Assembly: GCA_958296285.1 (NCBI GenBank)
Contig: OY282459.1
Span: 258,367 to 322,366 of the forward strand
Direction: 5' to 3'
From: an uncultured Alphaproteobacteria bacterium
GTDB taxonomy: Bacteria; Pseudomonadota; Alphaproteobacteria; JAPOUT01; G958296285
Length of the DNA stretch: 64,000 nucleotides
The position numbers were made by a program, and so were the translations under genes. This document shows positions 34,908 through 62,439 of this stretch, in pieces. The notes below the pieces were generated by a model. It saw only the letters and a program-made list of their open reading frames with translations, searched no databases and had not been told where the DNA came from. Each line of letters starts with the position of its first letter. The first letter of the stretch is position 1.

Positions 34908-35215
34908 AAAAAGGGGGGTGTGGGGGGCGAAGCCCCCCACGAAGAAGGGGGGGATCGGGGGGGAATCCCCCCCGAAAACGCGTGGGTGGGTGGGAAAAGA
35001 GCTTTTCCGAGCAAGCGCAGCGCAGCGAGGAAAAGCGACCCACCCACGCGCCCCCTGAACGCCAAGAGCTCTCGTAGCAGGGGGGTCGGCGGGCTTTCTC
35101 GCAGGCTCGCGCTACGCGCTTCGCCTGCTTCGTTTCGCCACGCCCGCCGACTTTTCGGGGGTTTCCCCCGAACCCCCTTTTCTTGGGGGAACTTCGTTCC
35201 CCCAAACCCCCTTTT
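34907..35215. repeat. palindromic repeat element, copy 6 (reverse)
   Basis: Same family. Intergenic clpB/M23 peptidase. Confidence 0.85.
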
Positions 35216-41730: not shown

Positions 41731-41776
41731 CCTTGATTCCCAAACCTAACCCCCCTATAAACCCCAAACACGTCCC

Positions 41777-41851
41777 GTCCCCTTCGTCTAGCGGTCTAGG
41801 ACGCCGCCCTCTCACGGCGGAAACAGGGGTTCGAGTCCCCTAGGGGACGCC
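41777..41851 (+). tRNA. tRNA-Glu (anticodon CUC)
   Basis: GTCCCCTTCGTCTAGCGGTCTAGGACGCCGCCCTCTCACGGCGGAAACAGGGGTTCGAGTCCCCTAGGGGACGCCA. Near-identical architecture to E. coli tRNA-Glu; anticodon loop CTCTCAC. Confidence 0.85.
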
Positions 41852-41890
41852 ACCAACACAGAAACCCAACCCATCCCATACGCCCCCCTT

Positions 41891-43774: not shown

Positions 43775-43791
43775 CGTTTGGACGAGGGCGG

Positions 43792-46503: not shown

Positions 46504-46604
46504 GACTGTCTTATGCCTTAAGCCTTGTGTCTTGGGTGGGAGGAGAAGCCGCTGGGGAGCGTCCGCCGCCTTGAGAGAAAGAGGGGAGACAGGGGAACTG
46601 TTCC

Positions 46605-47357
46605 ATGCGCCACAGCGATAGCAGATCGGCGAGTTTTTGCCAAGACGCGAAAACCTTTCTCGCCGCCTTCCCTCTTTTGGCGCTCATCCTCTTTGCCGCC
46701 GCCCCCCAAAAAACCGCCGCCGCCCAAAAAACCGCCGCCCCCGCCGCCGCGACCCGTCTGACTCCTGAAGCGGTGATCGCGCGGCTTGATCGCGACGTCA
46801 TTCTTCCGATGAGCCGCCTCGCCGAAGAGAGCGAAGGCGAGGAGAGGCAGGCGAAATTCCTAAAACTTTTGGATTCGGTTTTTGATCTGGAGCGCATCAC
46901 AGTGGCGAGCATCGGACACAGCCATTGGCGCGCATGGACGCCAGAGCAGCGCGCCGCCTATCGCCAAGCCTTCCGCGATTATATGATCGTCATCTATCTG
47001 GATCGCTTCCGCGCCTATACCGGGAGCGGGCTGAAAATCGTCAAATCCACGATAGAAGGCAAGCGCGCCCTCGTGCAGACCCGATTGGTCGTGCCGAATG
47101 AAGAGAATCCCCTCGTCTCCTTCCTGTTGAGACATGGCAAGGCGGGCTGGAAGATCGTGGATGTCTATTTTGACGGCGCGATCAGCGAAGTGGCGGGGCT
47201 TCGCGCGCAGTTCAGCAAAGCGCTGGACAAGCAAGGCTATGAAGGCTTGCTCCAAGAGATGGCGAAGCTGAAAGAGCGTCTTTTGTCAGAAGAGCGAGAG
47301 GGGCGAGAGGGGCGAGAGGGGCAAAAGGGACAAGAGGGACGGCAGAAGAAAAATTAG
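46605..47357 (+). CDS. MlaC/Ttg2D-family periplasmic lipid-binding protein (HpnM-like)
   Basis: Signal peptide. MlaC-family core (...HWRAWTPEQRAAYRQAFRDYMIVIYLDRFRAYTG...). Divergent from the HpnN-like gene. C-terminal (EGR)n tail from 9-bp DNA repeats at 47290-47345. Confidence 0.7.
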   Translation: MRHSDSRSASFCQDAKTFLAAFPLLALILFAAAPQKTAAAQKTAAPAAATRLTPEAVIARLDRDVILPMSRLAEESEGEERQAKFLKLLDSVFDLERITVASIGHSHWRAWTPEQRAAYRQAFRDYMIVIYLDRFRAYTGSGLKIVKSTIEGKRALVQTRLVVPNEENPLVSFLLRHGKAGWKIVDVYFDGAISEVAGLRAQFSKALDKQGYEGLLQEMAKLKERLLSEEREGREGREGQKGQEGRQKKN

Positions 47358-48214
47358 GCGGAAGAGGCGCGAAACGCGCCGACGCTCGCCAAGAAAGATC
47401 CGTTGCGCCACCCTCTTGACGGCGCGTAGCGCAGAGGCTCGCCATTCTGATCCACGACATGCCCGCCCGCCGCTTCCAAAAGCGCCTGTCCGGCGGCGGT
47501 GTCCCATGCCATGCTGGGGGTCTGGCGCGGATAAATCTGCGCTTCGCCGCAGGCGAGCATGGCGAATTTGATAGCCGAGCCGGATCGCAAGATTCGTTTG
47601 GACTGGTAGCGCCGTTTTTGAGATTCCGCGTAAGCCGGCTCAGCGCCTCTGGAAAGGGCGAGGACGGGGCTGGCCGTCTTGCGCGGATGGAGGCGGCGAA
47701 GACCCCCGCCCCCGCCCCCGCCGCCGCCCGCGCCCCTCGCGCCGCCCGCGCCGCCGCCGCGCTCTTCATAAGCCCCGCCATGCAGAGATCCCCAAAAGAG
47801 ACGCCGCTTGGCAGGCGCGTAAAGAACGCCGCATAGAGCGCGATCATTTTCCACATAGGCGATATTGACGGTGAACTCGCCGTTTTTCTTCAGAAACTCC
47901 CTCGTGCCGTCCAGCGGATCCACCAAAAAAAATCGCCTTCGCGCCAAAGGCAGACGCCCCGCCTCCGCCGCCTCTTCGGAAATCGCCGGAATGGAAGGGC
48001 AGAGTTTCGCCAATTCGCGCAAGATATAGCGCTCGGCCAGGGCGTCGGCGGCGGTGACGGGGCTGGCGTCCCTCTTCAGCCGCGCGGCAGAGACGTCCCG
48101 CCCATAGTGGCGCATGATAATATGCCCGGCATGGCGCGCGATTCGTCTCATCTCTTCGCAGAGGGCGAGGCGCTGCGGCGTCCGCATCTCACGAGCCTTT
48201 CGGAAAGGGGGCAT
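47354..48214 (-). CDS. cysQ: 3'(2'),5'-bisphosphate nucleotidase CysQ / inositol monophosphatase family
   Basis: IMPase metal-binding motifs (EEAAEAG..., VDPLDGTREF, WDTAAGQAL). Contains a poly-Gly insertion (GGGAGGARGAGGGGGGGGG). The start is probably an internal Met (MRTPQ). Confidence 0.75.
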   Translation of the reverse strand: MPPFRKAREMRTPQRLALCEEMRRIARHAGHIIMRHYGRDVSAARLKRDASPVTAADALAERYILRELAKLCPSIPAISEEAAEAGRLPLARRRFFLVDPLDGTREFLKKNGEFTVNIAYVENDRALCGVLYAPAKRRLFWGSLHGGAYEERGGGAGGARGAGGGGGGGGGLRRLHPRKTASPVLALSRGAEPAYAESQKRRYQSKRILRSGSAIKFAMLACGEAQIYPRQTPSMAWDTAAGQALLEAAGGHVVDQNGEPLRYAPSRGWRNGSFLASVGAFRASSA

Positions 48215-48857
48215 GATGGCGAAGAGCGAAAGGAGGCGGGATTCCCTCTCTGTTCCGGCGCGTCTTTTGGGCGCGTGGCTCTGCCATGAACTGGCCGCCC
48301 CTTTGACGGCTCTGGGGCAGGGCTTGGAACTTCTCCCTCAAAGTTCCGCCAAAGAGCGGGAGGAGATTCTCCGCCTTCTCCAAGAAGGAAGCGCCGCGCT
48401 TGACGCCAGATTTCGGGCGCTGCAGCGCCTCTTCGCCGTCTCGCCGCCTGACGAGACGGAGGGGGGCTTTTCGGATAGCCTTGTCGCGCTTGCCGCCTCC
48501 CATAAGATCGCTCTTCGCTGCGAGGGCGTGGAGAATCTGCCTGTTCGTCATCGCGGAATCCTCGCTTTTTTGGCTTTCGCCGCCCTGTCGGGCTTGAAGC
48601 CGCCATCGTCTCTTAAAATCTCCTGCGTGAAAAGCGCGAAGAGCTGGCGCGTCCAAGCCTCCGCTTCGGGCTGCGAAAGGAAGCGCGTTTCCGCCTCGCG
48701 GCGCTTTTTTGAGAAGCCGTCTCCGCCGCCCTCATCGCTCTCGCCGTCTGACGCGCCTCTTTATCTTCTTGGCGAGAAAGCCAGATTGGAGGGCGCGCCT
48801 CTCCGCCTCCTCCATGAGGGCGGCGTCTCGGCGTTTTTGATAGAGATTCCTCTTTAG
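48213..48857 (+). CDS. chpT: histidine phosphotransferase ChpT
   Basis: ChpT signature LLGAWLCHELAAPLTALGQGLELL (LxxRLCHDLxxPxxAIxNGLELL). Convergent with ctrA as in Caulobacter and relatives. The start is taken at MMAKSE to avoid overlap with cysQ. Confidence 0.6.
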   Translation: MMAKSERRRDSLSVPARLLGAWLCHELAAPLTALGQGLELLPQSSAKEREEILRLLQEGSAALDARFRALQRLFAVSPPDETEGGFSDSLVALAASHKIALRCEGVENLPVRHRGILAFLAFAALSGLKPPSSLKISCVKSAKSWRVQASASGCERKRVSASRRFFEKPSPPPSSLSPSDAPLYLLGEKARLEGAPLRLLHEGGVSAFLIEIPL

Positions 48858-48912
48858 TTTTTATTTTTGATTTTTGATTTTTGTTTTTTGGGCGCGGATT
48901 TTATTTTTTATT

Positions 48913-49722
48913 TTAAGGCGCGCGGCGCGCGCTTCTGGCCGGGCGGGGCGGGCGCGGGGGGCGCTGTCGGCGCGGCGGGTGAGGGGGGCTGGGGCTTTTC
49001 AAGCGCTGCCGCATCGGCGTCACATTGCTTTTTTCGGCGCTCTTCTCCGCCGGATCGCGCAGCACATAGCCCCGCCCCCAGACTGTCTCAATATAATGCG
49101 CGCCGCCGGTCATCAAAGCGATCTTCTTGCGCAATTTGCAGACAAAGACGTCAATGATTTTAATGACAGGCTCGTCCATCCCGGCATAAAGATGCTCCAG
49201 CAAAAGCTCTTTCGTCAGAGTCGCGCCTTTGCGAAGGCAGAGAATCTCCAAAATCTGATATTCCTTGCGCGTGAGTCGGATGGGCGCGCCATCCACCTCC
49301 GCCTCGCGCCGCGCCAAATCCACGACGAGCCGCCCGGTGCGGACGCTGGGCGCGCTATAGCCATGGGCGCGGCGTATCACCGCCTTGAGACGCGCCAGCA
49401 ACTCATCTCTGGCGAAAGGCTTCGTCATATAGTCGTCCGCGCCGGTCATCAGTCCGCGCACCTTGTTCGTCACATCGGCATAGCCGGACAGAATGACGAG
49501 CGGCGCGTGCGTCTTCGCGCGGCGCAGACGGCGCAAGACTTCATGTCCGCTCATGTCAGGGAGATCCAAATCCAAAATCACGGCGTCATAATCATAGACG
49601 CGGCTCAGATCCAGCCCCTCCTCGCCGCTCCCTGCCGCATCCACGCTGAAGCGCTCGCGCTCCAGCAGAAGCGTGACGCTTCTGGAGGCGGCAAGATCGT
49701 CTTCAATCAGCAATATGCGCAT
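48913..49722 (-). CDS. ctrA: cell-cycle response regulator CtrA (with ~40-aa Pro/Arg-rich C-terminal extension)
   Basis: Near-identity to canonical CtrA blocks: MRILLIEDD..., YDYDAVILDLDLPDMSGHEVLRRLR, GADDYMTKPF, LTRKEYQILEILCLRKGATLTKE, PVIKIIDVFVCKLRKKIA, HIETVWGRGYVLRDP. Confidence 0.9.
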   Translation of the reverse strand: MRILLIEDDLAASRSVTLLLERERFSVDAAGSGEEGLDLSRVYDYDAVILDLDLPDMSGHEVLRRLRRAKTHAPLVILSGYADVTNKVRGLMTGADDYMTKPFARDELLARLKAVIRRAHGYSAPSVRTGRLVVDLARREAEVDGAPIRLTRKEYQILEILCLRKGATLTKELLLEHLYAGMDEPVIKIIDVFVCKLRKKIALMTGGAHYIETVWGRGYVLRDPAEKSAEKSNVTPMRQRLKSPSPPHPPRRQRPPRPPRPARSARRAP

Positions 49723-49831
49723 GGATAACCCGAATCACTTCTCTTTCTGAGAAAAAGCTTTGCGGAAAAGAGCGAAGGGGGTCAAGATGTTTTTGCGTCC
49801 ATCAAGCCAAAGAAGCCGAAGGCGAAAGATT

Positions 49832-50992
49832 ATGGAAGAGACTTTTCGCGATCTGCCGCCCCCGTCCGAAGCCGGGCCGATCGCGGTCGCGATGTCGGGA
49901 GGCGTGGATTCCTCCGCCGCCGCCGCTCTTTTGCGAGAGCGGGGCTATTCCCTGATCGGACTCTCGCTCCAACTTTATGATCAGAGCTTTTCCGGCAACA
50001 AGCCCTGCTGCGCCGGCCCCGCTCTGATGGAGGCGCGGCGCGCGGCGGCGAAACTTGGCATTCCGCATTATGTTTTGGATTATGAAAAGCGCTTCCGCGA
50101 CAGCGTCCTAAAGGATTTCGCCTCCTCCTATATGGAAGGGCGCACCCCTTCGCCCTGCATCCGCTGCAATGAGCGCGTGAAGTTCCGCGATCTGTTGGAT
50201 TTCGCCGGAGAGTTGGGGGCGGAGACGCTCGCCACCGGCCATTACGCCCGCCGCGTCAAAAAACGTCAGGGCTGGGAGATTTGGCGCGCCGCCGACAAAA
50301 ACCGCGATCAAAGCTATTTCCTCTGCATGACGACCAAAGCGCAGCTGGCGAGAATAGCCTTCCCTCTAGGCGGCATGACCAAAGACGAGACGCGCCGCTA
50401 TGCGCGGGCGAAGGGGCTTCAAGCCGCCGACAAGCCGGACAGCCAAGATCTCTGCTTCGTCCCGAAAGGGCGCTATTTTGAGACGGCGGAGAAGATGCGC
50501 CCGCAATCCTCGCGCTCCGGCGAGATTCTCCATCAGGACGGACGGCTTTTGGGGCGTCATGGCGGGATTCATCGCTTCACGCCCGGACAGCGCCGCATCG
50601 GGGTTTCCGATGGCCAGCCTCTTTATGTTTTGCGGATAGAGGCGGAGAAAGGGCGGGTTGTCGTCGGGCCGAAAGAGGCGCTCCGCCTTCGCCGCCTCGC
50701 TCTTCGGAATCTGAACTGGCTGGGAGAAGGCTCTCTGAGCGCCATGCGGGGAAAGAGCCGACAGATTCTGGCGCAAATCCGCGCCAGGGCGAAGCCCGCG
50801 CCGGCGGCCCTTCTGCCGCGCGCCGACGGTCATGCCCTCCTCACTTTCGCCGAAGAGCAGCCCGCATCCGCCGCGCCCGGACAGGCTTGCGTTTTTTATG
50901 AAAAAAGCGATAATCATCAGAGAATGCTGGGAGGAGGCTGGATCGCTTCCGAAGAGACGGCGGAGGCTGGAGATAAGGAACGAGAGGCATGA
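49832..50992 (+). CDS. mnmA: tRNA 2-thiouridine(34) synthase MnmA
   Basis: PP-loop AVAMSGGVDSSAAAALL. Catalytic Cys region (SPCIRCNERVKF). The start is most likely MEETF (49832). Confidence 0.9.
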   Translation: MEETFRDLPPPSEAGPIAVAMSGGVDSSAAAALLRERGYSLIGLSLQLYDQSFSGNKPCCAGPALMEARRAAAKLGIPHYVLDYEKRFRDSVLKDFASSYMEGRTPSPCIRCNERVKFRDLLDFAGELGAETLATGHYARRVKKRQGWEIWRAADKNRDQSYFLCMTTKAQLARIAFPLGGMTKDETRRYARAKGLQAADKPDSQDLCFVPKGRYFETAEKMRPQSSRSGEILHQDGRLLGRHGGIHRFTPGQRRIGVSDGQPLYVLRIEAEKGRVVVGPKEALRLRRLALRNLNWLGEGSLSAMRGKSRQILAQIRARAKPAPAALLPRADGHALLTFAEEQPASAAPGQACVFYEKSDNHQRMLGGGWIASEETAEAGDKEREA

Positions 50993-51693
50993 CGCAACCG
51001 CGAGATTCGGATTTTCGGAAGGATGACAGCCAAGTGCGCTTCCCGATGACGGCGCATGACGTCCGCAAAGCCTATCGGCGCTGGGCGCCTTTTTACGATT
51101 TTCTTTTCTCGCCCTTCGTGCTGCGGATGACGCATCATCAGGTGGCGAATCATGTGAATGGGGGGGCTGGCTCTGTTTTGGAGGTCGGCGTGGGGACGGG
51201 CTTCGCGCTTCCTCTTTACGAGACTCATTTGACGATCACCGGCGTGGATCTCTCGCCTGAGATGCTGGCGCGGGCGCGCCGCCGCGTGGAGAAGCGGGGG
51301 CTTGGCCACATTCATGAGCTTGCCGAGATGGACGCGACCGAACTTGCCTATCCCGACGGTCATTTTGACATGGTGGTGGCGGTGCATGTGATGTCGGTGG
51401 TTCCTGATCCCTGCCGCGTTTTTCGGGAGTTGGAGCGGGTCTGCAAGCCTGGGGGCGAGGTGATCATCGTCAATCATTTTCAGAGGGAGAAGCGCGATGT
51501 GATCGGCTTTATGGAGCGGGCGATCGCGCCTTTGTCGCGTTATTTGGGCTGGCATCCTGACATGCCGATCGCGATTTTCAACAAGCCTGGGCAGCTTTTG
51601 CTGTTGAAGGAGAAGCGGACGTTGAAACCTTTTGGTCTTTTCACGATGCTGCTTTTCAAGAAGCCTCTGTCGGCGGTTGGCGCGGCGGAGTAG
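50989..51693 (+). CDS. class I SAM-dependent methyltransferase (small, PmtA-like)
   Basis: SAM motif VLEVGVGTGFALP and motif II DMVVAVHVM. 4-nt overlap with mnmA. The stop overlaps the tRNA-Met 5' end by ~10 nt. Confidence 0.7.
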   Translation: MTQPRDSDFRKDDSQVRFPMTAHDVRKAYRRWAPFYDFLFSPFVLRMTHHQVANHVNGGAGSVLEVGVGTGFALPLYETHLTITGVDLSPEMLARARRRVEKRGLGHIHELAEMDATELAYPDGHFDMVVAVHVMSVVPDPCRVFRELERVCKPGGEVIIVNHFQREKRDVIGFMERAIAPLSRYLGWHPDMPIAIFNKPGQLLLLKEKRTLKPFGLFTMLLFKKPLSAVGAAE

Positions 51694-51760
51694 CTCAGTT
51701 GGTTAGAGCAGCGGAATCATAATCCGCGTGTCGGGGGTTCGAGTCCCTCCTCCGCTACCA
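51684..51760 (+). tRNA. tRNA-Met (anticodon CAU; elongator Met or tRNA-Ile2(k2C) not distinguishable by eye)
   Basis: GGCGGAGTAGCTCAGTTGGTTAGAGCAGCGGAATCATAATCCGCGTGTCGGGGGTTCGAGTCCCTCCTCCGCTACCA. Anticodon loop ATCATAA. CCA encoded. Confidence 0.85.
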
Positions 51761-51778
51761 GAACGCAATGGAGGCAGC

Positions 51779-52483
51779 ATGGCGCAGACGACCACTATCA
51801 AGAAGCATAATGAAGACAGGATTCGCCGCGCCAAAAGTTGGCTCAAAAGGGCGAAAGAGTGGCGCAACGAGAATCCCAATATGAAGGATGGTTCGGATGA
51901 AGAGTTTCTTTTTTTGTGGATCGCCTTCAACGCCGCTTATGGCTCTCTCGCCGGTCCGGAGGATAGCGAGAAAGAGTGGAAGTGTTGGAGAGGTTTTATA
52001 GAAAAAGTGATGAATATAGACTCATCAAGAATCTTGAAGGCTTTGTCCGCAACAGAACAGCTAAGTATCATGGAGATGAAAGCCGCAAGGCCCATAGATG
52101 AGCTGCTGAAAAACCCATATGTTTATGCGGGACTCTGGCAAAAGTTAAGAACGGGAAAACCTTGGTTCAAAGACATGGAAGACAAAAACAAGACAGCTAA
52201 AGAAAGTCGGCTCAAGGGAAATTGGAAAGGATTCGTCATTGAAATTCTGTATCGTCTTTACACGCTTCGCCATCAAATTGTCCATGGCGGGAAAACTTAC
52301 GGCAATTCAATCGATTCAAGCTGGGGCGCGAAGCAGCTCCAAGACGGATGCAAGATTATGAGGAACCTTGTTCCTGCCATTGTTGAGATTATAGAGAAAG
52401 ACATTAAAGAGAATCCAGCCACGCCAAGATGGGGCAAGATTGGCTATCCGCGCTTCCGCAAAACGCCCGATCCCGATCAATAA
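51779..52483 (+). CDS. hypothetical protein with HEPN-like Rx4HGG motif (low-GC islet gene 1)
   Basis: Start taken at MAQTTTIKKH (upstream Mets overlap the tRNA). Contains ILYRLYTLRHQIVHGGK (R-x4-H followed by GG). Lys/Glu/Trp-rich. Local GC ~45% against ~63% flanks. Confidence 0.45.
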   Translation: MAQTTTIKKHNEDRIRRAKSWLKRAKEWRNENPNMKDGSDEEFLFLWIAFNAAYGSLAGPEDSEKEWKCWRGFIEKVMNIDSSRILKALSATEQLSIMEMKAARPIDELLKNPYVYAGLWQKLRTGKPWFKDMEDKNKTAKESRLKGNWKGFVIEILYRLYTLRHQIVHGGKTYGNSIDSSWGAKQLQDGCKIMRNLVPAIVEIIEKDIKENPATPRWGKIGYPRFRKTPDPDQ

Positions 52484-53178
52484 ATATAAGGAAACACCCG
52501 CCACGGCACGCGCTTCTTATAATCAGCATAACCTTTGAGATTTTTCTCCAAAAATCGCTCCTCATAGCCAATCCGCCAAAGAAACATCGCGCAAAGAACG
52601 CCCATCGTCAGCGAGAAAATCCACTGCTGCACAATCAGCGCCCAGCCCGGAAAAACGATCAGCGCCGCCAAATACATCGGATGGCGAACATGGCGGTAAA
52701 GACCGTCCGAAACGACCCGCTGCCCCTCATGCTTGATCACGACAAGGCTGGAAAAAGCGTTCTGAAACATCGCCGCCGCGAAAATCCCCAATCCCAGCGC
52801 GAAAAGACAAACCCCCAAAAGAAGAGGAACCGTCTCAAAATCGCCGTCCGCCAAATAGGCGGAGGCGTAAAAGCCTCCGTAAAAAACCACGGAGAAAAGG
52901 GCGAGAAAGATTTTATCCCCGAAAGGCTGATCGCCAGAGGCGATCTTCATGCGACTCAACAGATAGTCGGGACGCCAAAAGGCAAGATAGAAAATGAACG
53001 GCGCCGGCAGAATGACCAGCATCACATAGGTGATGAGATAGGGGACATGAAAATCGCCGCCCGCCAAGAAAAAAGGAATGACGCCGTAAAGGATCGCCGC
53101 CATCAGCACCGCGCCCAAAGCCAAAAGAGTGGAGCGAAGATAAGTCATCTTCAACATTATATCCTTTACTCGGGGCAA
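52477..53178 (-). CDS. isoprenylcysteine carboxyl methyltransferase (ICMT/PEMT)-family membrane methyltransferase
   Basis: 5-6 TM helices. C-terminal ICMT-family signature ...RVVSDGLYRHVRHPMYLAALIVFPGWALI...EERFLEKNLKGYADYKKRVP. Lies immediately downstream of, and overlaps, the AIPR gene on the same strand. Confidence 0.7.
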   Translation of the reverse strand: MPRVKDIMLKMTYLRSTLLALGAVLMAAILYGVIPFFLAGGDFHVPYLITYVMLVILPAPFIFYLAFWRPDYLLSRMKIASGDQPFGDKIFLALFSVVFYGGFYASAYLADGDFETVPLLLGVCLFALGLGIFAAAMFQNAFSSLVVIKHEGQRVVSDGLYRHVRHPMYLAALIVFPGWALIVQQWIFSLTMGVLCAMFLWRIGYEERFLEKNLKGYADYKKRVPWRVFPYIY

Positions 53179-55400
53179 GATACAATGCCATCAACAAGGC
53201 TTTTGTGTTGCACGGCATGTTTGGCCCACGCAAACGCCGCAAGATAGTCTGCTCCCTTTTGAAGATTTTGATCCCAAGAATCTATTATTTCAAATACTTG
53301 AATCCGAGTTTTAACGTTATAGACCATTCTCGTCCTTGATGTTGTTTGATGGTAGAGTTCCTTCCAACTGCCACCCGCCAATTGTTCGATTATATTGCAG
53401 AACATAGACCAACTCTTCCCCACCAAATGATTCTCTTCAAATTTTCCATCCTTCACCGCCTCCGAGATGAGTGTGGCATCCATGCTTGTTTTCAATCTCT
53501 GGAGGTCTGTCTTTTCAAGAAGATTCGGAAAAATCCGATACAGGCCTTTCCCGTATTTTTTGAATAAAAGGTATCCCACCATCTCAACGTATATATACAT
53601 GGCTGTATTCTTAACTACTCCAGCCAAATATTCTGATTCTTTCATCAAGAGGGTAGCCTTTTCTTCTGGTGTTATCCTCGTGCTCGTGATCCCCAACTTT
53701 TTTTCCATATGCTTCCGATGGTCCTGGTTGGATGGAGTCAGCTGTTTCGCAGCTTTACTCAGCAAATAAGCAGTTAGCAGAGCTTGGTGCGGGGGAGATT
53801 GAGGCTCAAAGTCCTCCTTGATCCGCCTAGGGTCGTATTTCAATCTATAATCTCCACCTTCCTGAAGGGAATGCTGCTCGGGTCGCCTCTCAAACACGGT
53901 CTTATAGTAGTCATGCGTATCTACAAAAATTCTCTTTTTGTCATGCATAGCCTCGCTAGAAAACCCTATGAACGCTAACCAGGCTTCAGCGACGTGACTA
54001 TTCTCGGCGACCCGATATTTTCTCCTTCTTGCATCGTGAGACGTTTGTATTGCGAAATGCTGTGGTTTCTTCCCTGGCAGAGTGGGCCAGTCCTCGGACT
54101 CTCTGAAAGCTTCCCATGCGAATTCTTTCCTCTCATAAAACCAGCCTTCTTTAGCAAAGTCCTTTTCTAGAGCTTTTTGCTCCTCCTCATTTGATTTAAG
54201 ATTCCGGGGATCCATCACATTCTGAGTGTTGGTAGCAATGATGAGCTCCCCTACATCCTCAACAGCCCCTTTCTCGAATGCTCGCACCAAAACGTAACAT
54301 TCTTTCTCAAAAATCTTCTTCAACTCAGAGCCCATGTCCTTATAGGTTTCGGAAAGTGTTGTGATCGTCTGCAACCCGTTCACGATGCCAGGCTTAACAA
54401 AGGTTGCGCAGCCAGGCTTACCACGATCGGAAGGTTTAGCGGAAACAGACTCAGCAAGAATCGTCAACCCGTTATTCAGCAGGTGAAACTTCTTGATCCC
54501 TTTTTCTGTTTGAATCTGATCCTCTATTTTCTTATTGACCGCCGATTTAGAGATCGCGCAGCGAACATTGTCTTCAAATATACGCTGTCCAAAATCTTCG
54601 TATCCGTTTATGAGGTCATAGGCCTTCGCGAAGAAAACCTTGAACCCCTCATCATCTATCACATCCCCACGGATAGCAACCGTAATCCTATCCCTTTTAT
54701 CGCCGCCTCGGTCACGCCAACCAAAATTTCCTAAAGCCCATTGCGCTTCTAACAGCCTATCAATGCCGAGGATTTTGAACTCAACAGAACATTCAACGCC
54801 ATTTACGGTCAGATTTTTTGAGGACTGTTGAATTTCCCGAAACATTTCTTTTGCTTGGTCAGTTAAACCTGAGCCAGAAAGAATGAGTGAGATATCTATT
54901 TTATAGACGTCTTGGATTTCTCCACCATCCCCACCTTGACGCCTAAATTTTCGCAACTCGGATAATAAAGTCTGCTGAAAGCCCCGAATACTGTGATTCT
55001 GCTCTCTCTTCGCTTTATGAGCTGTATTCAAATAATTGAGAATACTGTTTATATCACCAAGATTTTTACGGTCATGCTTCTCTTTCCAGATATCCAAAAT
55101 ATCCGCGTCTCGCCCTTTGCATTGAAAAATCTCCACCTTTCCAGGCTTAAAAGCATAGAAATCAATGCCTCTATCACCTGGGCCGTCGGACATATCGGAA
55201 TTGTCAGCACTTTCTCTATCGTCATAGCCAAGGCACTCTAGCGCGACAATTTTAAAGGCTTCTGGATATGAGAGATCGTCCGTATTCATTGCTTCACGGA
55301 TTCTCTCCGAGAGCTCCTGCAATAGATTGCTGCGCTGGTTTTCAGGAAAAGCGCTGTTTCTGTTGGCGTGTCCTTTGCTCAACTTAACCTCCTCTGACAA
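53166..55400 (-). CDS. AIPR-family (abortive-infection phage-resistance-like) protein, 744 aa
   Basis: Contains the AIPR hallmark NGxQT twice (LLNNGLTIL and GIVNGLQTITTL). Large, Lys/Glu-rich. GC ~42%. Low-GC islet next to tRNA-Met. Confidence 0.65.
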   Translation of the reverse strand: MSEEVKLSKGHANRNSAFPENQRSNLLQELSERIREAMNTDDLSYPEAFKIVALECLGYDDRESADNSDMSDGPGDRGIDFYAFKPGKVEIFQCKGRDADILDIWKEKHDRKNLGDINSILNYLNTAHKAKREQNHSIRGFQQTLLSELRKFRRQGGDGGEIQDVYKIDISLILSGSGLTDQAKEMFREIQQSSKNLTVNGVECSVEFKILGIDRLLEAQWALGNFGWRDRGGDKRDRITVAIRGDVIDDEGFKVFFAKAYDLINGYEDFGQRIFEDNVRCAISKSAVNKKIEDQIQTEKGIKKFHLLNNGLTILAESVSAKPSDRGKPGCATFVKPGIVNGLQTITTLSETYKDMGSELKKIFEKECYVLVRAFEKGAVEDVGELIIATNTQNVMDPRNLKSNEEEQKALEKDFAKEGWFYERKEFAWEAFRESEDWPTLPGKKPQHFAIQTSHDARRRKYRVAENSHVAEAWLAFIGFSSEAMHDKKRIFVDTHDYYKTVFERRPEQHSLQEGGDYRLKYDPRRIKEDFEPQSPPHQALLTAYLLSKAAKQLTPSNQDHRKHMEKKLGITSTRITPEEKATLLMKESEYLAGVVKNTAMYIYVEMVGYLLFKKYGKGLYRIFPNLLEKTDLQRLKTSMDATLISEAVKDGKFEENHLVGKSWSMFCNIIEQLAGGSWKELYHQTTSRTRMVYNVKTRIQVFEIIDSWDQNLQKGADYLAAFAWAKHAVQHKSLVDGIVSCPE

Positions 55401-55431
55401 TTGTCCTGCTGTCCAAAATTGTAAAGTTGCG

Positions 55432-56520
55432 TCAGGGCGTCAGGACGACGCGCCCCATCACTTTGCCGGCGCGGAGATCCTCCAACGCCGCGTTGGCTTT
55501 ATCCAACGGCCTCGTCTCTATCGGAATCGGGCTTATCTTGCCCGCCTTGACGAGCGCCAGCATCTCCTTCGTGTCGTCATAAGAGCCGACAAAAGACCCC
55601 GCCATGAAAAAAGCCCGCAGCGGAAACATCGGCAGAGGCATCTGAAACGCGCCGCCGAAAAGACCGACCAAAACCACGCCGCCTCCGCGCCTGACCGCGC
55701 CATTGGCGGCGGCGGCGGACTCTTCCGACCCTACGAAATCCACGACCCCGGCCACCCCGCCTTCCGTCAGCGTCATGATTTTCCCCAAAGCGTCCTGCTC
55801 TTTGAGATTGAAAACTTCCGCCGCGCCCGCGCCCATCGCGGCTTGCAGTTTCTGCTCATCCACATCGGCGACAAAAGGGGCTTTGTCAAAAAGAGCGGCG
55901 GCGAATTGCAGACCCATCATGCCGACCCCTCCCATGCCGATCAGAAGAATCTGCTCCTCTCCGACAAGGCGCTTGAGTTTCTTGATCGCGCCATAAGCCG
56001 TGATACCGGAACACATATAGGTCGCCGCCAAGCCGGGGGCGATGCCTTCGCTGTCCAAGACATATTTCTCATGCGGCACAAGGCAGTGAGTCGAGAAGCC
56101 GCCGCCCCAATTGACTCCCAGCACGCGCCCCATCGGACATAAATGCTCCTCGCCGCGCGCGCAAATGGAGCATTCGCCGCAGCCGATCCAAGGATAAAGA
56201 ACGCCGTGATCGCCGACTTTGACCGACTTTACGTCAGGGCCGACGGCAGAGACATTTCCCTCAATCTCATGCCCCAAAATATGCGGCAGATCGCGCATCG
56301 TCAGATCCAGCTTCTCCTCCCCGCCCAGCGAGAAATAGCCGTCATGGATATGGACGTCCGAATGGCAGACCCCGGCATGGGTGACCTCCATCAAGACTTG
56401 CGCGCCTTCGGGCTTTGGCGTTTCCAGTTCCACGCCCTCCAGAGGCGCGCCGAATTTCGTGATGGCTTGGCTTTGCATGGGTTCCCTCCTCCAAGATTGA
56501 CGGGTTTTATTCTGCCACAA
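55432..56520 (-). CDS. zinc-dependent alcohol dehydrogenase (MDR family)
   Basis: GroES-like domain with Zn ligands (HAGVCHSDVHIHDG..., CGECSICARGEEHLC). Rossmann GMGGVGMMGLQFAAA. Confidence 0.85.
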   Translation of the reverse strand: MWQNKTRQSWRREPMQSQAITKFGAPLEGVELETPKPEGAQVLMEVTHAGVCHSDVHIHDGYFSLGGEEKLDLTMRDLPHILGHEIEGNVSAVGPDVKSVKVGDHGVLYPWIGCGECSICARGEEHLCPMGRVLGVNWGGGFSTHCLVPHEKYVLDSEGIAPGLAATYMCSGITAYGAIKKLKRLVGEEQILLIGMGGVGMMGLQFAAALFDKAPFVADVDEQKLQAAMGAGAAEVFNLKEQDALGKIMTLTEGGVAGVVDFVGSEESAAAANGAVRRGGGVVLVGLFGGAFQMPLPMFPLRAFFMAGSFVGSYDDTKEMLALVKAGKISPIPIETRPLDKANAALEDLRAGKVMGRVVLTP

Positions 56521-57467: not shown

Positions 57468-57712
57468 GTGTCGTCTTTTCGCACGAAGGTGACGGCGTAG
57501 TGGATTCGTCCTTCTAGGAGGGGTTTGGGTTCGCCGAGTCCGTCGGTCAGGAAGAATTTGCGCGGCGTCACGCGCCCTTCGAGGCGGTAGCCGCGCTCGT
57601 GCATTTTGCGGCGATGGAATTCCATCGCGGCGGGCGTGAAATCGGTCGAGAGGACTGTGATTCTTTCGGGGAGCGCGGTTTGGCTTTTGTCGTTTTTGGT
57701 TTTGTCGTTCAT
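57464..57712 (-). CDS. small hypothetical protein (82 aa)
   Basis: ATGA-type overlaps with both neighbours indicate translational coupling inside the msrA operon. No recognisable motif. Confidence 0.4.
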   Translation of the reverse strand: MNDKTKNDKSQTALPERITVLSTDFTPAAMEFHRRKMHERGYRLEGRVTPRKFFLTDGLGEPKPLLEGRIHYAVTFVRKDDT

Positions 57713-58203
57713 GGCGCTTCTCTCGCGCGGAAGAGGCGGGCTGTGTGTTTTTCTTCGTAATGTTGGTGGTAGTCTTCGGCGCGCCAGAATTGGGTTTTTG
57801 GTTGGATTTCTGTCGCGATGGGTTTTTGGAGGCGTCCGGAGTTTTGGAGCGCCGTCAGGGATTCGCGCGCCAGTTTATTTTGTTCTTCGGAGTGGGTGAA
57901 GATGGCGCTTCTATATTGGGTTCCGATGTTGGGGCCTTGTTTATTTTTTTGGGTTGGGTCGTGGCATGTCCAGAAAGTTTGGAGGAGGGTTTGGTAGGAG
58001 ATGGTTTGGGGGTCAAAGATGATGTGGATGGTTTCGGCGTGGCCTGTTTGTCCTGTGCAGACTTGTTCGTAGGAGGGGTTTGGGGTTGTTCCGCCTGTGT
58101 ATCCGACTTCGGTTTTGAGGATGCCTGGGATTTTGGCGAAGATGCTTTGGACTTGCCAGAAGCATCCTGCGGCGAAGCTGGCGTGTTGGGTTTGGTTGGT
58201 CAT
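57709..58203 (-). CDS. msrA: peptide-methionine (S)-S-oxide reductase MsrA
   Basis: Active-site GCFWQ (FAAGCFWQVQSIF) and downstream GYTGG..YEQVCTGQTGHAE. The start is taken at MTNQTQ (58203); the upstream ORF part is repeat sequence. Confidence 0.85.
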   Translation of the reverse strand: MTNQTQHASFAAGCFWQVQSIFAKIPGILKTEVGYTGGTTPNPSYEQVCTGQTGHAETIHIIFDPQTISYQTLLQTFWTCHDPTQKNKQGPNIGTQYRSAIFTHSEEQNKLARESLTALQNSGRLQKPIATEIQPKTQFWRAEDYHQHYEEKHTARLFRAREAP

Positions 58204-58213
58204 GGGGGGATTA

Positions 58214-58552
58214 TAGCATAGAAGTTTTGGTTTGGTTTGCTCCCGTGAAGGGGGGTCAAGGGGGGCTTGCCCCCCTTGAAAAAAGGGGGGATCGGGGGGA
58301 ATCCCCCCCGAAAGCGCGTGGGTGGGGTGGGGAAAAAGCATTTGCGAAGCGAGGTGAGCCGAGCGAGCAAATGCGACCCCACCCACGCGCCCCCTGCTCG
58401 CAAGATCTCTTGGAGGGGGGTCGGCGGGCTTTCTCGCGGGCTTGCCTACGGCTTCGCCCGCTTCGTTTCGCCACGCCCGCCGACCTTTCGGGGGTTTCCC
58501 CCGAACCCCCTTTTTTCTTGGGGGGCTAGCCCCCCAAACCCCCCTTCTTTTG
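58214..58552. repeat. palindromic repeat element, copy 8 (reverse)
   Basis: Same family. Begins with a truncated GCATAGAAG module. Intergenic msrA/ACAD. Confidence 0.85.
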
Positions 58553-58559
58553 GAGCAAC

Positions 58560-59699
58560 CTAAAAGCCCCCCAACCGCGCATAACGCGCACGATGAAACC
58601 GACCATCGCCATACAACTGAGCCTGAACCCGCGCCCGCTTCATGAATAAACCCATATCCAACTCATCCGTCATCCCCATCCCGCCATGCAACTGAACCGC
58701 CTCATTCGTAATATGACGCAAAGCCTCCGACATCCGAGCCTTCGCCAAACTCGCCATCTGCGCCACATCATCACGCCCCTCCTCCAACGCCGACAACCCA
58801 TCCCAAACAACCGAATGACCCAACTCAATCTGACAAAACATCTCCGCCGCCCGATGCTTCAAAGCCTGAAAAGACCCAATCGGCTGATCAAACTGCCGGC
58901 GCTCCTTCATATGCGCCAAAATCCTCTCAAAAAGCTCGCGCGCCGCGCCCAGCATCTCAGAAGCAAGCGCGATCCGCGAAACATCCAAAACACGCGACAA
59001 AATCTCGCCGCCCCGATCCAACTCGCCCAAAACCGAATCCTCGCCCAGCGCCACATCCTCCAACTGAATGTCCGCCATGCCGCGACTGTCCGCCATGGAA
59101 AGAGAAACACGCTCAACCCCCCTCGCGTCTGACGGAAAAAGAAAAAGCGTGATGCCCCGCTTGTCGTCTTTCTCGCCGCTCGTCCTCGCCGAAACAATGA
59201 GCCAATCCGCCGCGCCGCCGTCCGGCGCGAAGCGCTTGCGCCCCCGAAGCGTGAAGCCGCCCCGCCCCCTCCTCGCCTCGCATGAAACCGCATAAGGCGC
59301 ATGACGCGCGCCCTCGTCAAAAGCGGGGGCGAAAATTCTCTCGCCGGCGGCGATCTTCGGCAAATGCGCCTTCTTCTGCGCCTCGCTGCCAGCATGATTG
59401 ACGGCTTCCGCCGAAACGCAAGAGGTCGCGAAAAGAGGGGAGGGCGAAAGCCTCCGCCCCGCCTCCTCAAAAACCAACCCCATGCCCAGCGCGCCAAAGC
59501 CGGTGCCGCCATAATCTTCCGGAATCATCATGCCGGCGAAGCCGAGCTCCGCCATTTTCTTCCACAGATTCCCGTCAAAAGCCTCGCCCTCCCCCGCGTC
59601 CCGAAGAGCGCGCAAATGAGAGACAGGCATATGGTCTTGGAAAAACTGCGCCGCCGTTTCCCGCAGCAGCCCATGCTCCTCGCTCAATAGGAACGCCAT
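58560..59699 (-). CDS. acyl-CoA dehydrogenase family protein
   Basis: ACAD three-domain layout. Conserved ..GGMGMTDE.. C-terminal region and catalytic-base neighbourhood. Confidence 0.85.
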   Translation of the reverse strand: MAFLLSEEHGLLRETAAQFFQDHMPVSHLRALRDAGEGEAFDGNLWKKMAELGFAGMMIPEDYGGTGFGALGMGLVFEEAGRRLSPSPLFATSCVSAEAVNHAGSEAQKKAHLPKIAAGERIFAPAFDEGARHAPYAVSCEARRGRGGFTLRGRKRFAPDGGAADWLIVSARTSGEKDDKRGITLFLFPSDARGVERVSLSMADSRGMADIQLEDVALGEDSVLGELDRGGEILSRVLDVSRIALASEMLGAARELFERILAHMKERRQFDQPIGSFQALKHRAAEMFCQIELGHSVVWDGLSALEEGRDDVAQMASLAKARMSEALRHITNEAVQLHGGMGMTDELDMGLFMKRARVQAQLYGDGRFHRARYARLGGF

Positions 59700-62048: not shown

Positions 62049-62127
62049 GGCGGGTCTCTTGGGGTTTGCGGCTTTTGGGATGGGGGGATTTTGGGGGAAT
62101 GGGGGTTAGGAGTCAAGACGCGCTCCA

Positions 62128-62432
62128 AAAAAGGGGGGTCAAGGGGGGCTTGCCCCCCTTGAGAAAGGGGGTTCGGGGGAAACCCCCGAATAGTCGGCGG
62201 GCGTGGCGAAACGAAGCGGGCGAAGCGCGACAGCGCAAGCCCGCGAGAAAGCCCGCCGACCCCCCTCCAAGAGCTCTTCTAGCAGGGGGCGCGTGGGTGG
62301 GTCGCATTTGCTCGCTTCGCGTTGCTTCGCTCGCAAATGCTTTTTTCCCACCCACCCACGCGCTTTCGGGGGGGATTCCCCCCCGATCCCCCTCTTTTTT
62401 TGGGGGGCTAGCCCCCCAAACCCCCCTTTACG
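62128..62432. repeat. palindromic repeat element, copy 9 (forward)
   Basis: Same family. Intergenic diiron gene/ACAD. Confidence 0.85.
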
Positions 62433-62439
62433 GGAGCCG

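What the first reader, a model, noticed from the sequence alone, without database searches (positions are those of the whole stretch)
51761..55431. Low-GC islet at tRNA-Met: AIPR-family protein + ICMT-family membrane methyltransferase + HEPN-like protein (candidate compact anti-phage module)
Directly 3' of tRNA-Met(CAU) the GC content drops from ~63% to ~42-46% across two genes. One encodes a 744-aa AIPR-family protein (two NGxQT motifs; 53166-55400, - strand). The other encodes a 235-aa protein with an Rx4HGG HEPN-like motif (51779-52483, + strand). Between them sits a 233-aa ICMT/PEMT-family multi-TM methyltransferase (RHPMY motif; 52477-53178). It is on the same strand as the AIPR gene, overlaps it, and has host-like GC (~56%).

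No integrase, recombinase or obvious direct repeat of the tRNA 3' end is present. tRNA-adjacent low-GC islets carrying Abi-type genes are typical defense islands. An AIPR gene overlapping (likely co-transcribed with) a membrane isoprenylcysteine-carboxyl-methyltransferase-like enzyme is not a combination I recognise from described defense systems.

The HEPN call is based only on a short motif. The mixed GC suggests a mosaic or a host gene captured between two acquired genes.
Basis: partly seen in the sequence, partly recalled or inferred. Interest (0 to 1): 0.7.

Follow-up and report, generated by a model that had tools for sequence, protein, structure and literature searches.

The report
Mosaic islet, not a three-gene module
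The three genes next to tRNA-Met are real and correctly identified, but they are not one defence system: the AIPR (AbiU-type) abortive-infection nuclease is a strain-specific single-gene insertion beside a resident membrane methyltransferase and a separate lone HEPN-family gene.

Summary
**Observation: confirmed.**
- tRNA-Met(CAT) lies at 51684-51760.
- It is followed by a low-GC HEPN-like gene, an ICMT/PEMT-family membrane methyltransferase and a low-GC AIPR gene.
- There is no integrase and no att repeat.

**Family calls: largely hold.**
- ICMT/PEMT: above the Pfam cut-offs, with RHPMY/EE aligned to structure 4A2N.

**"Compact three-gene module": not supported.**
- Two sister genomes, about 97-98% identical across the flanking DNA, keep tRNA-Met, HEPN-like, ICMT and ADH but lack AIPR.
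- The 2,289 bp AIPR segment (53143-55431) sits exactly between the ADH stop codon and ICMT codon 5. The sister genomes carry 28 bp or 172 bp there instead.
- No ICMT or HEPN-like gene occurs at 84 loci of AIPR relatives. No ICMT or AIPR occurs within 10 kb at 80 genomic HEPN-like loci, nor within 3.5 kb at 4 plasmid loci.
- The only recurrent AIPR partner is a DNA methyltransferase (9 of 84 loci).

**Best reading.** This is a small variable spot holding a recently acquired stand-alone AbiU/AIPR nuclease, a resident methyltransferase and an older lone HEPN gene. It is ordinary and of low interest.

The parts
50989..51693 (+). Left core flank: UbiE-type class I SAM methyltransferase gene. Its 3' end overlaps the tRNA by 10 nt.
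   Evidence: ORF. Pfam methyltransferase families are recorded for the orthologue in L001 and L087. It is 99.4% nt identical to L001.
51684..51760 (+). tRNA-Met (anticodon CAT).
   Evidence: ARAGORN; Rfam tRNA at 66.7 bits. It is 100% identical in L001. No repeat of its 3' end occurs elsewhere near the islet.
51779..52483 (+). Lone HEPN-family gene (234 aa, soluble, all-helical). Predicted metal-independent RNase with R164-x4-H169. Low GC, and present in all three strains of the lineage.
52477..53157 (-). ICMT/PEMT-superfamily membrane methyltransferase (226 aa, about 5 hydrophobic segments). Resident gene, convergent with the HEPN-like gene and overlapping its end by 7 nt.
   Evidence: Pfam PEMT 49 bits and ICMT 41 bits, both above cut-off. 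It aligns to Ma-ICMT 4A2N with GxYxxxRHPMY and EE retained. Hydropathy. P0206 confirms the start. It is present in L001 and L087. dN/dS is 0.16-0.25. GC3 is 0.63.
53143..55431 (.). Strain-specific 2,289 bp segment, absent from both sister genomes. It comprises a short 5' leader, the AIPR ORF, an 8-nt spacer with an RBS, and a replacement start plus the first 5 codons for ICMT.
   Evidence: BLAST and alignment against L001 and L087. Identity stops at 53142 and resumes at 55430-55432, exactly at the ADH stop codon. L001 has 172 unrelated bp there and L087 has 28 bp.
53166..55400 (-). AIPR / AbiU-type abortive-infection protein (744-aa ORF; probable start TTG 55382 gives 738 aa). It has an N-terminal PD-(D/E)xK nuclease-like domain (D76, G78, D80 ... 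Q93-x-K95), a central AIPR domain (NGLQT 341-345, N391/Q393/N394) and a helical C-terminal domain.
55432..56478 (-). Right core flank: zinc-type alcohol dehydrogenase gene. In L087 its stop codon lies 24 nt upstream of the ICMT start.
   Evidence: ORF. Pfam ADH_N and ADH_zinc_N are recorded for the orthologues. It is 98.4% nt identical to L001.

Best explanation
The locus is a small mosaic at a strain-variable spot between core genes (a UbiE-type methyltransferase plus tRNA-Met on one side, a Zn-ADH gene on the other). The host is a sparsely sampled alphaproteobacterium-like organism with a main contig of about 1.7 Mb. Three independent elements sit side by side.

1. **ICMT/PEMT-superfamily membrane methyltransferase.** It is a resident gene under purifying selection. 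In the simplest allele (L087) it lies 24 nt downstream of ADH on the same strand and has its own GGAGG.
2. **Lone HEPN-family gene directly 3' of tRNA-Met.** This is an older foreign acquisition shared by all three known strains. I infer that it is a metal-independent RNase using the R164/H169 pair. It has no fixed partner gene.
3. **Single-gene AIPR/AbiU-type abortive-infection protein.** I infer that it was acquired recently, in this strain's lineage only, as a minimal 2.3 kb cassette. The cassette dropped exactly between the ADH stop codon and ICMT codon 5. It replaced the ICMT ribosome-binding site and first codons with its own.

AIPR most likely works alone, as lactococcal AbiUi does. I infer that it uses its N-terminal FokI/Mrr-like PD-(D/E)xK nuclease domain (D80, Q93-x-K95), under control of the central AIPR domain and the helical C-terminal domain, to cut nucleic acid once infection is sensed.

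Its tight spacing with ICMT is a by-product of where the cassette landed, not evidence of a functional partnership.

- **Shown:** gene content, family membership, folds, the indel and its exact boundaries, and the lack of co-occurrence.
- **Inferred:** direction of the indel (gain rather than loss), nuclease and RNase activities, and any anti-phage phenotype.
For: **Indel**
- L001 and L087 are about 97-98% identical to the window through 41742-53142 and again from 55430/55432 onward, but they lack 53143-55431. They hold 172 bp and 28 bp there instead.
- Both keep intact HEPN-like and ICMT genes. ICMT has dN/dS 0.16-0.25 and HEPN-like 0.40.
- The tRNA/HEPN-like junction and the HEPN-like/ICMT junction are homologous in all three strains.

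**Foreign origin of AIPR**
- GC3 is 0.47 against 0.68-0.75 for host genes.
- The nearest homologue is 42% identical.

**No co-occurrence**
- 84 AIPR-relative loci (546 kb; 53 with at least 700 bp downstream) give no ICMT-profile or HEPN-like-profile hits, and the positive controls work.
- 84 HEPN-like loci (1.43 Mb) give no ICMT or AIPR profile hits.
- The closest AIPR relatives sit next to a type ISP RM gene and a PLD-helicase gene, or in unrelated contexts.
- The only recurrent AIPR neighbour is a DPPY DNA methyltransferase, in 9 of 84 loci. That matches the published AIPR-RM link (PMC3506569).

**Stand-alone function and nuclease fold**
- AbiUi alone confers resistance, and its AF2 model resembles FokI (PMC13064643).

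**HEPN**
- The family has variable neighbourhoods. The most frequent neighbour is a WYL regulator, in 9 of 80 loci. It occurs on 22 plasmids.
Against: - Only three genomes of this lineage exist in the collections. The direction of the indel therefore rests on parsimony, low GC3 and the lack of AIPR remnants, not on an outgroup.
- AIPR and ICMT are on the same strand, 8 nt apart, with no terminator-like site between them. They are probably co-transcribed in this strain, so a newly formed functional link cannot be formally excluded.
- ICMT has lower GC3 (0.63) and higher between-strain divergence (96.5% nt) than the core flanks (98.4-99.4%). Its nearest homologues are only about 33% identical. 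It may itself be an old acquisition rather than a true core gene.
- The co-occurrence surveys cover the closer relatives of each protein, not every PF10592 member.
- No activity or phenotype was measured.
Confidence: 0.8

Rival explanations
1. AIPR, the ICMT-like methyltransferase and the HEPN-like protein form one compact three-gene anti-phage system acquired together at tRNA-Met.
For: - The three genes are adjacent, and two of them have low GC.
- AIPR and ICMT are 8 nt apart on one strand.
- AIPR is a recognised Abi family, and HEPN domains are common defence effectors.
Against: - AIPR is absent from two sister genomes that keep the other two genes.
- The three genes have three different GC3 values: 0.47, 0.63 and 0.53.
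- The HEPN-like gene is convergent, not co-oriented.
- There is no co-occurrence in 84 plus 84 loci.
- PADLOC has no model for the other two proteins.
- There is no integrase and no att repeat.
Confidence: 0.03
2. The HEPN-like gene and the ICMT-like gene form a two-gene unit, for example a toxin plus a membrane-associated modifier or immunity function. They would have been acquired together at tRNA-Met, with AIPR added later.
For: - Both genes are present in all three strains, with the same 7-nt convergent overlap of their ends.
- Both are more diverged between strains than the core flanks: 95.8% and 96.5% nt against 98.4-99.4%.
- Both have GC3 below the typical host range.
- The ICMT is an orphan, at most 33% identical to anything else.
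Against: - None of 84 loci of the HEPN-like family has an ICMT/PEMT-profile gene nearby, within 10 kb at the 80 genomic loci and within 3.5 kb at the 4 plasmid loci.
- The convergent orientation excludes an operon.
- In L087 the ICMT is arranged as a downstream partner of the host ADH gene, with a 24-nt gap and its own RBS.
- ICMT GC3 (0.63) overlaps the low end of the host range, for example MsrA at 0.59.
Confidence: 0.07
3. AIPR is ancestral at this site and was lost independently, or replaced, in L001 and L087. The locus would then be an old defence islet that is decaying in the sister strains.
For: - All three strains have different sequence between the same two boundaries (2,289, 172 and 28 bp), so no allele is obviously the 'empty' ancestor.
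- Defence genes are frequently lost.
Against: - There is no AIPR remnant in the 172 bp or 28 bp alleles; BLAST finds only chance words.
- AIPR GC3 of 0.47 shows no adaptation towards the host's 0.7.
- L087, the strain closest to the window (98.3% identity, identical HEPN-like protein), has a tidy ADH-RBS-ICMT arrangement.
- Even if true, this rival does not rescue the three-gene module, because there is no co-occurrence elsewhere.
Confidence: 0.12

Closest known systems
AbiU (AbiUi/AbiU1) and the AIPR family (Pfam PF10592) of abortive-infection proteins
   Same: - The Pfam AIPR domain scores well above cut-off, and the PADLOC AbiU model scores 6e-31.
- The N-terminal domain has a FokI-like PD-(D/E)xK fold, as reported for AbiUi (PMC13064643).
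- It is a single large soluble protein with no obligatory partner.
- Relatives often lie beside DNA methyltransferase or RM genes (PMC3506569).
   Different: - It is only 42% identical to its nearest database relative.
- The AbiU profile match covers only residues 140-426.
- At 738-744 aa it is longer than the 537-position AbiU profile.
- No RM or DNA methyltransferase gene lies next to it here.
- It is inserted inside what appears to be a host ADH-ICMT gene pair.
- No phenotype is known.
MZA system protein MzaE (AIPR-family component of a five-gene system)
   Same: It shares the AIPR domain (PADLOC MzaE 4.5e-11; NCBIfam MzaE 46.9 bits).
   Different: The score is far below the NCBIfam cut-off of 1050 bits. 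No candidate MzaA-D partner is present: the flanking genes are an ICMT/PEMT methyltransferase and a Zn-ADH. It is not an MZA system.
HEPN superfamily lone or Abi-type RNases (RiboL-PSP-HEPN, AbiV, AbiA-CTD, HEPN toxins of HEPN/MNT pairs)
   Same: - Invariant Rx4H motif.
- All-helical fold whose best PDB matches are HEPN domains.
- Occurs on plasmids and in variable, defence-like neighbourhoods.
   Different: - No Pfam or NCBIfam HEPN model reaches threshold.
- There is no MNT antitoxin or other fixed partner.
- At 234 aa, with extra conserved blocks (RRAxSW, WIAFNAAY), it is larger than minimal HEPN domains of about 130 aa.
Isoprenylcysteine carboxyl methyltransferase / phospholipid methyltransferase superfamily (Ste14-like; Ma-ICMT, PDB 4A2N)
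   Same: - Pfam PEMT and ICMT are above cut-off.
- About 5 hydrophobic segments.
- The cofactor-site motifs RHPMY and EE align with 4A2N.
   Different: - It scores far below the NCBIfam equivalog cut-off, 54.9 against 160 bits.
- It is at most 33% identical to Bradyrhizobium Ste14-like proteins.
- Its substrate is unknown.
- No link to phage defence was found: the 10 top-ranked of 414 papers matching at least two of the three search terms did not contain the ICMT term.
tRNA-associated genomic or defence islands
   Same: Low-GC foreign genes lie immediately 3' of a tRNA gene, and gene content varies between strains.
   Different: - No integrase, no att direct repeat and no mobility genes.
- The strain-variable segment (AIPR) is not the one adjoining the tRNA.
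- The tRNA-proximal HEPN-like gene is fixed in all three strains.

Membership tests
AIPR (Pfam PF10592) / AbiU-type Abi protein | Match to the family profile above the curated threshold | tested here: met
   PF10592 scores 106.3 bits against a cut-off of 25, E=3.2e-30, over residues 275-624. All 63 aligned relatives hit it too. PADLOC AbiU scores 5.9e-31.
AIPR (Pfam PF10592) / AbiU-type Abi protein | Conserved core motifs of the family (NGLQT-type and NxQN blocks) | tested here: met
   N341, G342, L343, Q344, T345, N391, Q393, N394 and R399 are invariant across 63 sequences, including the window protein.
AIPR (Pfam PF10592) / AbiU-type Abi protein | Nuclease-like (FokI-type PD-(D/E)xK) domain, as described for AbiUi | tested here: met
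AIPR (Pfam PF10592) / AbiU-type Abi protein | Confers phage resistance by abortive infection | not testable with these tools
   This needs cloning and phage challenge.
MZA defence system (MzaE) | Equivalog-level match to MzaE, plus MzaA-D partner genes | tested here: not met
   NCBIfam MzaE scores 46.9 bits against a cut-off of 1050. The flanking genes are an ICMT/PEMT methyltransferase and a Zn-ADH, so there is no room for MzaA-D partners.
HEPN superfamily | Conserved Rx4-6H catalytic motif | tested here: met
   R164 and H169 are invariant in 70 homologues; the consensus is RLYTLRNQIxHGG.
HEPN superfamily | Helical HEPN fold | tested here: met
HEPN superfamily | Match to a curated HEPN family profile above threshold | tested here: not met
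   HEPN_RiboL-PSP scores 17.3 bits against a cut-off of 28.4. 14 of 70 family members hit it, best E 1.4e-5. NCBIfam and PADLOC give nothing.
HEPN/MNT type II toxin-antitoxin pair | Adjacent MNT (nucleotidyltransferase) antitoxin gene | tested here: not met
   Only 18 nt separate the tRNA from the gene start, and the gene's 3' end overlaps ICMT. No recurrent neighbour exists in 80 loci.
ICMT/PEMT membrane methyltransferase superfamily | Profile match above threshold, with cofactor-site motifs and multiple TM segments | tested here: met
   PEMT scores 49 bits (cut-off 25) and ICMT 41.1 bits (cut-off 24). RHPMY and EE align to 4A2N. There are about 5 hydrophobic segments.
Protein-S-isoprenylcysteine O-methyltransferase (NCBIfam NF040696 equivalog) | Equivalog-level score | tested here: not met
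   It scores 54.9 bits against a cut-off of 160. The substrate therefore cannot be assigned.
Multi-gene defence system (AIPR+ICMT+HEPN-like module) | Genes co-inherited and recurrently co-located across genomes | tested here: not met
   AIPR is absent from 2 of 3 strains. There is no co-occurrence at 84 AIPR loci or at 84 HEPN-like loci.
tRNA-integrated genomic island | Integrase gene and a direct repeat of the tRNA 3' end bounding the island | tested here: not met
   No integrase ORF is present. No repeat of the tRNA 3' end with up to 3 mismatches occurs near the islet.

The most novel reading that the evidence does not exclude
In this one strain the AIPR cassette landed inside a host ADH-ICMT gene pair and now supplies the ICMT start codon and ribosome-binding site. 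This could have created a new operon in which a membrane methyltransferase is co-expressed, and translationally coupled, with an Abi nuclease. If that coupling is functional (for example, the methyltransferase tempers or localises AIPR toxicity), it would be an undescribed Abi accessory.

A separate, more modest possibility concerns the HEPN-like family. It has at least 583 matching stretches in the genome collection, sits on 22 plasmids, has a WYL regulator nearby in about 11% of loci, and has no curated model. It may be an unrecognised stand-alone defence or addiction RNase.
Probability: 0.06. Interest if true: 0.5.

Novelty: new member of a known kind. Interest (0 to 1): 0.2.

Why it matters
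**Practical value.** The result removes a false lead. The unusual AIPR plus membrane-methyltransferase pairing is an accident of where an insertion landed, not a new defence architecture.

**What remains of interest**
- **A clean small-scale gene gain.** A single-gene Abi cassette of 2.3 kb, with no mobility genes and no repeats, sits at base-pair-exact boundaries inside a host gene pair. It rewrites the downstream gene's start. This shows how defence genes can enter small genomes without islands or integrases.
- **A divergent AIPR with a confident model.** The protein is 42% identical to its nearest relative. Its model shows a FokI-like nuclease domain and supports the nuclease view of AbiU-type proteins.
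- **An uncurated lone HEPN family.** It is widespread and has no curated profile, so it could be added to defence-gene catalogues if it proves active.

Tried and rejected
- **Foldseek against afdb50:** the library was not available.
- **PDB sequence-profile searches:** the AIPR and HEPN-like alignments gave only marginal hits.
- **Exact look-up of P0206:** no record. The third genome was reached through the window's own HEPN-like protein.
- **Genome-collection scan with the HEPN-like alignment:** it did not recover the window's own lineage; the best hit was 37% identical. Cluster look-ups show that only three assemblies of this lineage exist. No outgroup synteny could therefore be obtained, and the direction of the indel stays inferential.
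- **Promoter and terminator scan:** at chance level, so uninformative about transcription units.
- **Repeat searches:** no att repeats, target-site duplications or terminal inverted repeats around the AIPR segment or the tRNA.
- **Rfam:** only the three tRNAs.
- **First dN/dS run for the HEPN-like gene:** distorted by indels in my extraction (a spurious stop in L001). I redid it with the called coordinates.
- **Literature search linking ICMT to phage defence:** the 10 top-ranked of 414 matching papers did not contain the ICMT term.
- **Idea rejected, AIPR plus ICMT as an analogue of the AIPR plus DNA-methyltransferase pairs seen elsewhere.** ICMT is a lipid or protein O-methyltransferase-type membrane enzyme. 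It predates AIPR at the locus.
- **Idea rejected, the whole islet as a tRNA-integrated island.** There is no integrase and no att repeat, and the variable part is distal to the tRNA.

Full report

Yes.

- ARAGORN and Rfam place tRNA-Met(CAT) at 51684-51760 on the + strand.
- Three ORFs follow it:
  - a 234-aa ORF at 51779-52483 (+);
  - an ORF at 52477-53178 (-);
  - a 744-aa ORF at 53166-55400 (-).
- GC drops from about 0.60 in the flanks to 0.41-0.47 over the first and third genes, and to 0.50-0.53 over the middle one.
- Third-position GC separates the genes more sharply: AIPR 0.47, HEPN-like 0.53, ICMT 0.63. Most host genes are 0.68-0.75, with a low tail such as MsrA at 0.59.
- There is no integrase ORF and no copy of the tRNA 3' end near the islet.

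Two details need correcting.

- The AIPR stop codon is TAA at 53168-53166. It is followed by AAGGA and then ATG at 53157. The public 226-aa protein P0206 uses that start. AIPR and ICMT are therefore 8 nt apart, not overlapping.
- AIPR most likely starts at TTG 55382, behind GAGGAGG, giving 738 aa, identical to P0001.

**2. What are the three proteins?**

*AIPR.*
- Pfam PF10592 scores 106 bits against a cut-off of 25.
- PADLOC AbiU scores 6e-31, with a weaker MzaE hit. NCBIfam MzaE is far below its cut-off.
- PHROG 1841, "Abi alpha-like", scores 2e-35.
- In an alignment of 63 relatives the invariant residues include D76, G78, D80, Q93 and K95 in the N-terminal part, and NGLQT (341-345) and N391/Q393/N394 in the AIPR domain.
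- The AlphaFold model is confident, with pLDDT 90.5.
- This agrees with a recent review. It reports that AbiUi alone confers resistance and that its model superimposes on FokI (PMC13064643).
- An earlier comparative study noted that AbiU1/AIPR is frequently linked to RM systems and is related to the DndB N-terminal domain (PMC3506569).

*ICMT-like protein.*
- Pfam PEMT (49 bits) and ICMT (41 bits) are both above cut-off.
- It falls far below the NCBIfam equivalog threshold for protein-S-isoprenylcysteine O-methyltransferase.
- It aligns with the archaeal ICMT structure 4A2N across the cofactor-binding half and retains GxYxxxRHPMY and the EE pair.
- It has about five hydrophobic segments.
- Its nearest database relatives, Bradyrhizobium Ste14-like proteins, are only about 33% identical.

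*HEPN-like protein.*
- For this protein Pfam gives only a sub-threshold HEPN_RiboL-PSP hit: 17.3 bits against 28.4.
- Among 70 homologues, 14 hit that model, best E 1.4e-5.
- The family alignment shows invariant R164, Q166, H169 and G170 (consensus RLYTLRNQIxHGG). It also shows conserved RRAxSW and WIAFNAAY blocks.
- The model is confident (pLDDT 89.8) and all-helical.
- PGAP labels plasmid homologues "HEPN domain-containing protein".
- I accept the HEPN assignment at superfamily level with moderate confidence. It belongs to no curated family.

**3. Do the three genes belong together?**

*Comparison with sister genomes.*
- The 92%-identical homologue of the HEPN-like protein led to contig L001. 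The window's own HEPN-like protein led to a 1.72 Mb contig, L087.
- Both contigs are syntenic with the window and about 97-98% identical to it across the aligned flanks. Both show the gene order mnmA, methyltransferase, tRNA-Met, HEPN-like, ICMT, ADH. Neither has AIPR.
- Identity to the window runs unbroken to 53142 and resumes at 55430-55432, which is the ADH stop codon.
- Between these two points the window has 2,289 bp. L001 has 172 unrelated bp, which add an in-frame extension of about 45 aa to ICMT. L087 has 28 bp that provide GGAGG and an ATG.
- In L087, ICMT thus sits 24 nt downstream of ADH on the same strand.
- The window's segment is a minimal cassette: a short leader, the AIPR ORF, an 8-nt spacer with an RBS, and five new ICMT codons.
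- No repeats or mobility genes flank it.
- The tRNA/HEPN-like junction and the convergent HEPN-like/ICMT junction are homologous in all three strains.
- ICMT (dN/dS 0.16-0.25) and HEPN-like (0.40, with changes concentrated at the termini) are both maintained by selection.

*Co-occurrence elsewhere.*
- A scan of species-representative genomes found at least 583 stretches encoding relatives of the HEPN-like protein. The best match was 37% identical.
- In the 80 loci fetched, with ±10 kb where the contig allowed, plus four plasmid loci (1.43 Mb in total), neither tblastn nor profile HMMs found any ICMT/PEMT or AIPR gene.
- That family has no fixed neighbour. The commonest is a WYL-type regulator, in 9 of 80 loci, which is also seen directly upstream on plasmid pOT1-5.
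- tRNA adjacency is rare in that family.
- The family occurs on 22 plasmids, 14 of them conjugative, and on no phage in the collection.
- For AIPR I examined 84 loci (546 kb): 79 metagenomic loci plus five contigs of the closest relatives. Of these, 53 have at least 700 bp downstream of the gene. None has an ICMT-profile or HEPN-like-profile hit, while both profiles find the window's own genes.
- The nearest AIPR relative (42% identity) lies beside a type ISP RM gene and a PLD-helicase gene.
- The only recurrent neighbour of the clade is a DPPY-motif DNA methyltransferase lying mostly upstream on the same strand (8 of 10 ORFs), in 9 of 84 loci.

**4. Most likely explanation**

The ICMT gene, and also the HEPN-like gene, are present at this tRNA locus without AIPR in sister genomes, and the combination does not recur.

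- The islet is a mosaic of three parts:
  - an older lone HEPN-family gene next to the tRNA;
  - a resident membrane methyltransferase that belongs with the upstream ADH gene;
  - a recently gained, stand-alone AbiU/AIPR-type gene.
- I infer gain rather than loss for three reasons:
  - AIPR GC3 shows no adaptation towards the host value.
  - The other alleles contain no AIPR remnants.
  - L087, the closest strain, has a tidy ADH-RBS-ICMT arrangement.
- With only three genomes of this lineage available, loss or replacement cannot be excluded.
- Mechanistically, I infer that AIPR acts alone as an infection-triggered nuclease. It would act through its PD-(D/E)xK domain (D80, Q93-x-K95), governed by the AIPR and C-terminal helical domains.
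- I infer that the HEPN-like protein is an RNase using R164 and H169.
- The substrate of the methyltransferase is unknown.
- No activity or phenotype was measured here.

**5. What remains open**

- AIPR and ICMT are probably co-transcribed in this strain. They are 8 nt apart with no terminator-like site between them, although the scan is at chance level overall.
- A strain-specific, newly formed functional link cannot be ruled out, but nothing supports it.
- ICMT is itself somewhat atypical (GC3 0.63, 96.5% nt identity between strains, orphan sequence). It may be an old acquisition.

**6. Novelty and verdict**

- AIPR is a divergent new member of a known Abi family.
- The ICMT-like gene is an ordinary, if orphan, superfamily member.
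- The HEPN-like protein belongs to a widespread but uncurated HEPN family.
- The proposed new three-gene architecture is not real.
- Interest is low, at 0.2. The residual value lies in the base-pair-exact, mobility-gene-free cassette gain, and in the uncurated lone HEPN family.

Noticed in passing
window approx. 16728-17035, 19556-19861, 22267-22577, 23372-23668, 30391-30693, 34909-35216, 41341-41724, 58271-58556, 62122-62437; also L001 14301-14616 and 18301-18613: A dispersed repeat of about 310 bp occurs at least 9 times in the 64 kb window, in both orientations, at 75-92% identity. It is built of G-run/C-run hairpins (for example GGGGGGCTAGCCCCCC and GGGGGTTCGGGGGAAACCCCCGAA) around a conserved core (GTCGGCGGGCGTGGCGAAACGAAGC...GCGAGAAAGCCCGCCGACCCCCC). 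There is no Rfam match. It looks like a MITE/REP-like intergenic element. It explains the odd 'GGFPPIPPFFKGG' ORF translations around 57700-58560.
   Followed up: partly
window 53143-55431; L001 11359-11530; L087 11365-11392: The interval between the ADH stop codon and ICMT codon 5 holds three unrelated sequences in three strains (2,289, 172 and 28 bp), with the same boundaries in each. Every allele supplies a different in-frame ICMT N-terminus: MLKMT-, an extension of about 45 aa rich in Lys/Arg in L001, and MR- in L087. This is a micro-hotspot of replacement that repeatedly rewrites a gene start.
   Followed up: partly
whole window; L001; L087: The host lineage is extremely sparsely sampled. 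Even CtrA-like, ADH, acyl-CoA dehydrogenase and methyltransferase proteins have only these three assemblies in their 90%-identity clusters, out of about 15 billion proteins. The genome-collection scan did not recover the lineage. Main contigs are about 1.72-1.73 Mb.
   Followed up: partly
L031 10558-11604 and 8 other loci among L007-L086; L167 2421-3395 (plasmid pOT1-5): A subset of the HEPN-like family (9 of 80 genomic loci, plus Haematobacter plasmid pOT1-5) has a WYL-domain/HTH regulator nearby. On pOT1-5 it lies immediately upstream on the same strand. Plasmid copies also sit near RecB-like nucleases, an exonuclease/AAA-ATPase gene pair, transposases and integrases. This hints that the family is a regulated defence or addiction effector.
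   Followed up: partly
L097 608-1864 and 8 other loci among L088-L166: In 9 of 84 loci of this AIPR clade, a DPPY-motif DNA methyltransferase gene lies close by, mostly upstream on the same strand (8 of 10 ORFs). This matches the published AIPR-RM association. The window's AIPR lacks such a partner.
   Followed up: partly
window 58560-59699; L001 14719-15444: The acyl-CoA dehydrogenase gene is intact in the window and in L087 (379 aa). In L001 it is broken into fragments of 116 and 119 aa. My extraction of the L001 region also showed internal stops, but that may be an artefact of how I extended the alignment. This is either a pseudogene or an assembly or frameshift error in L001.
   Followed up: no
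window 47354-48214 (- strand): The inositol-monophosphatase-family ORF contains a glycine-run insert (GGGAGGARGAGGGGGGGGG). Its length differs between strains: 286 aa here, 272 aa in L001 and 277 aa in L087. This suggests a length-variable low-complexity tract.
   Followed up: no
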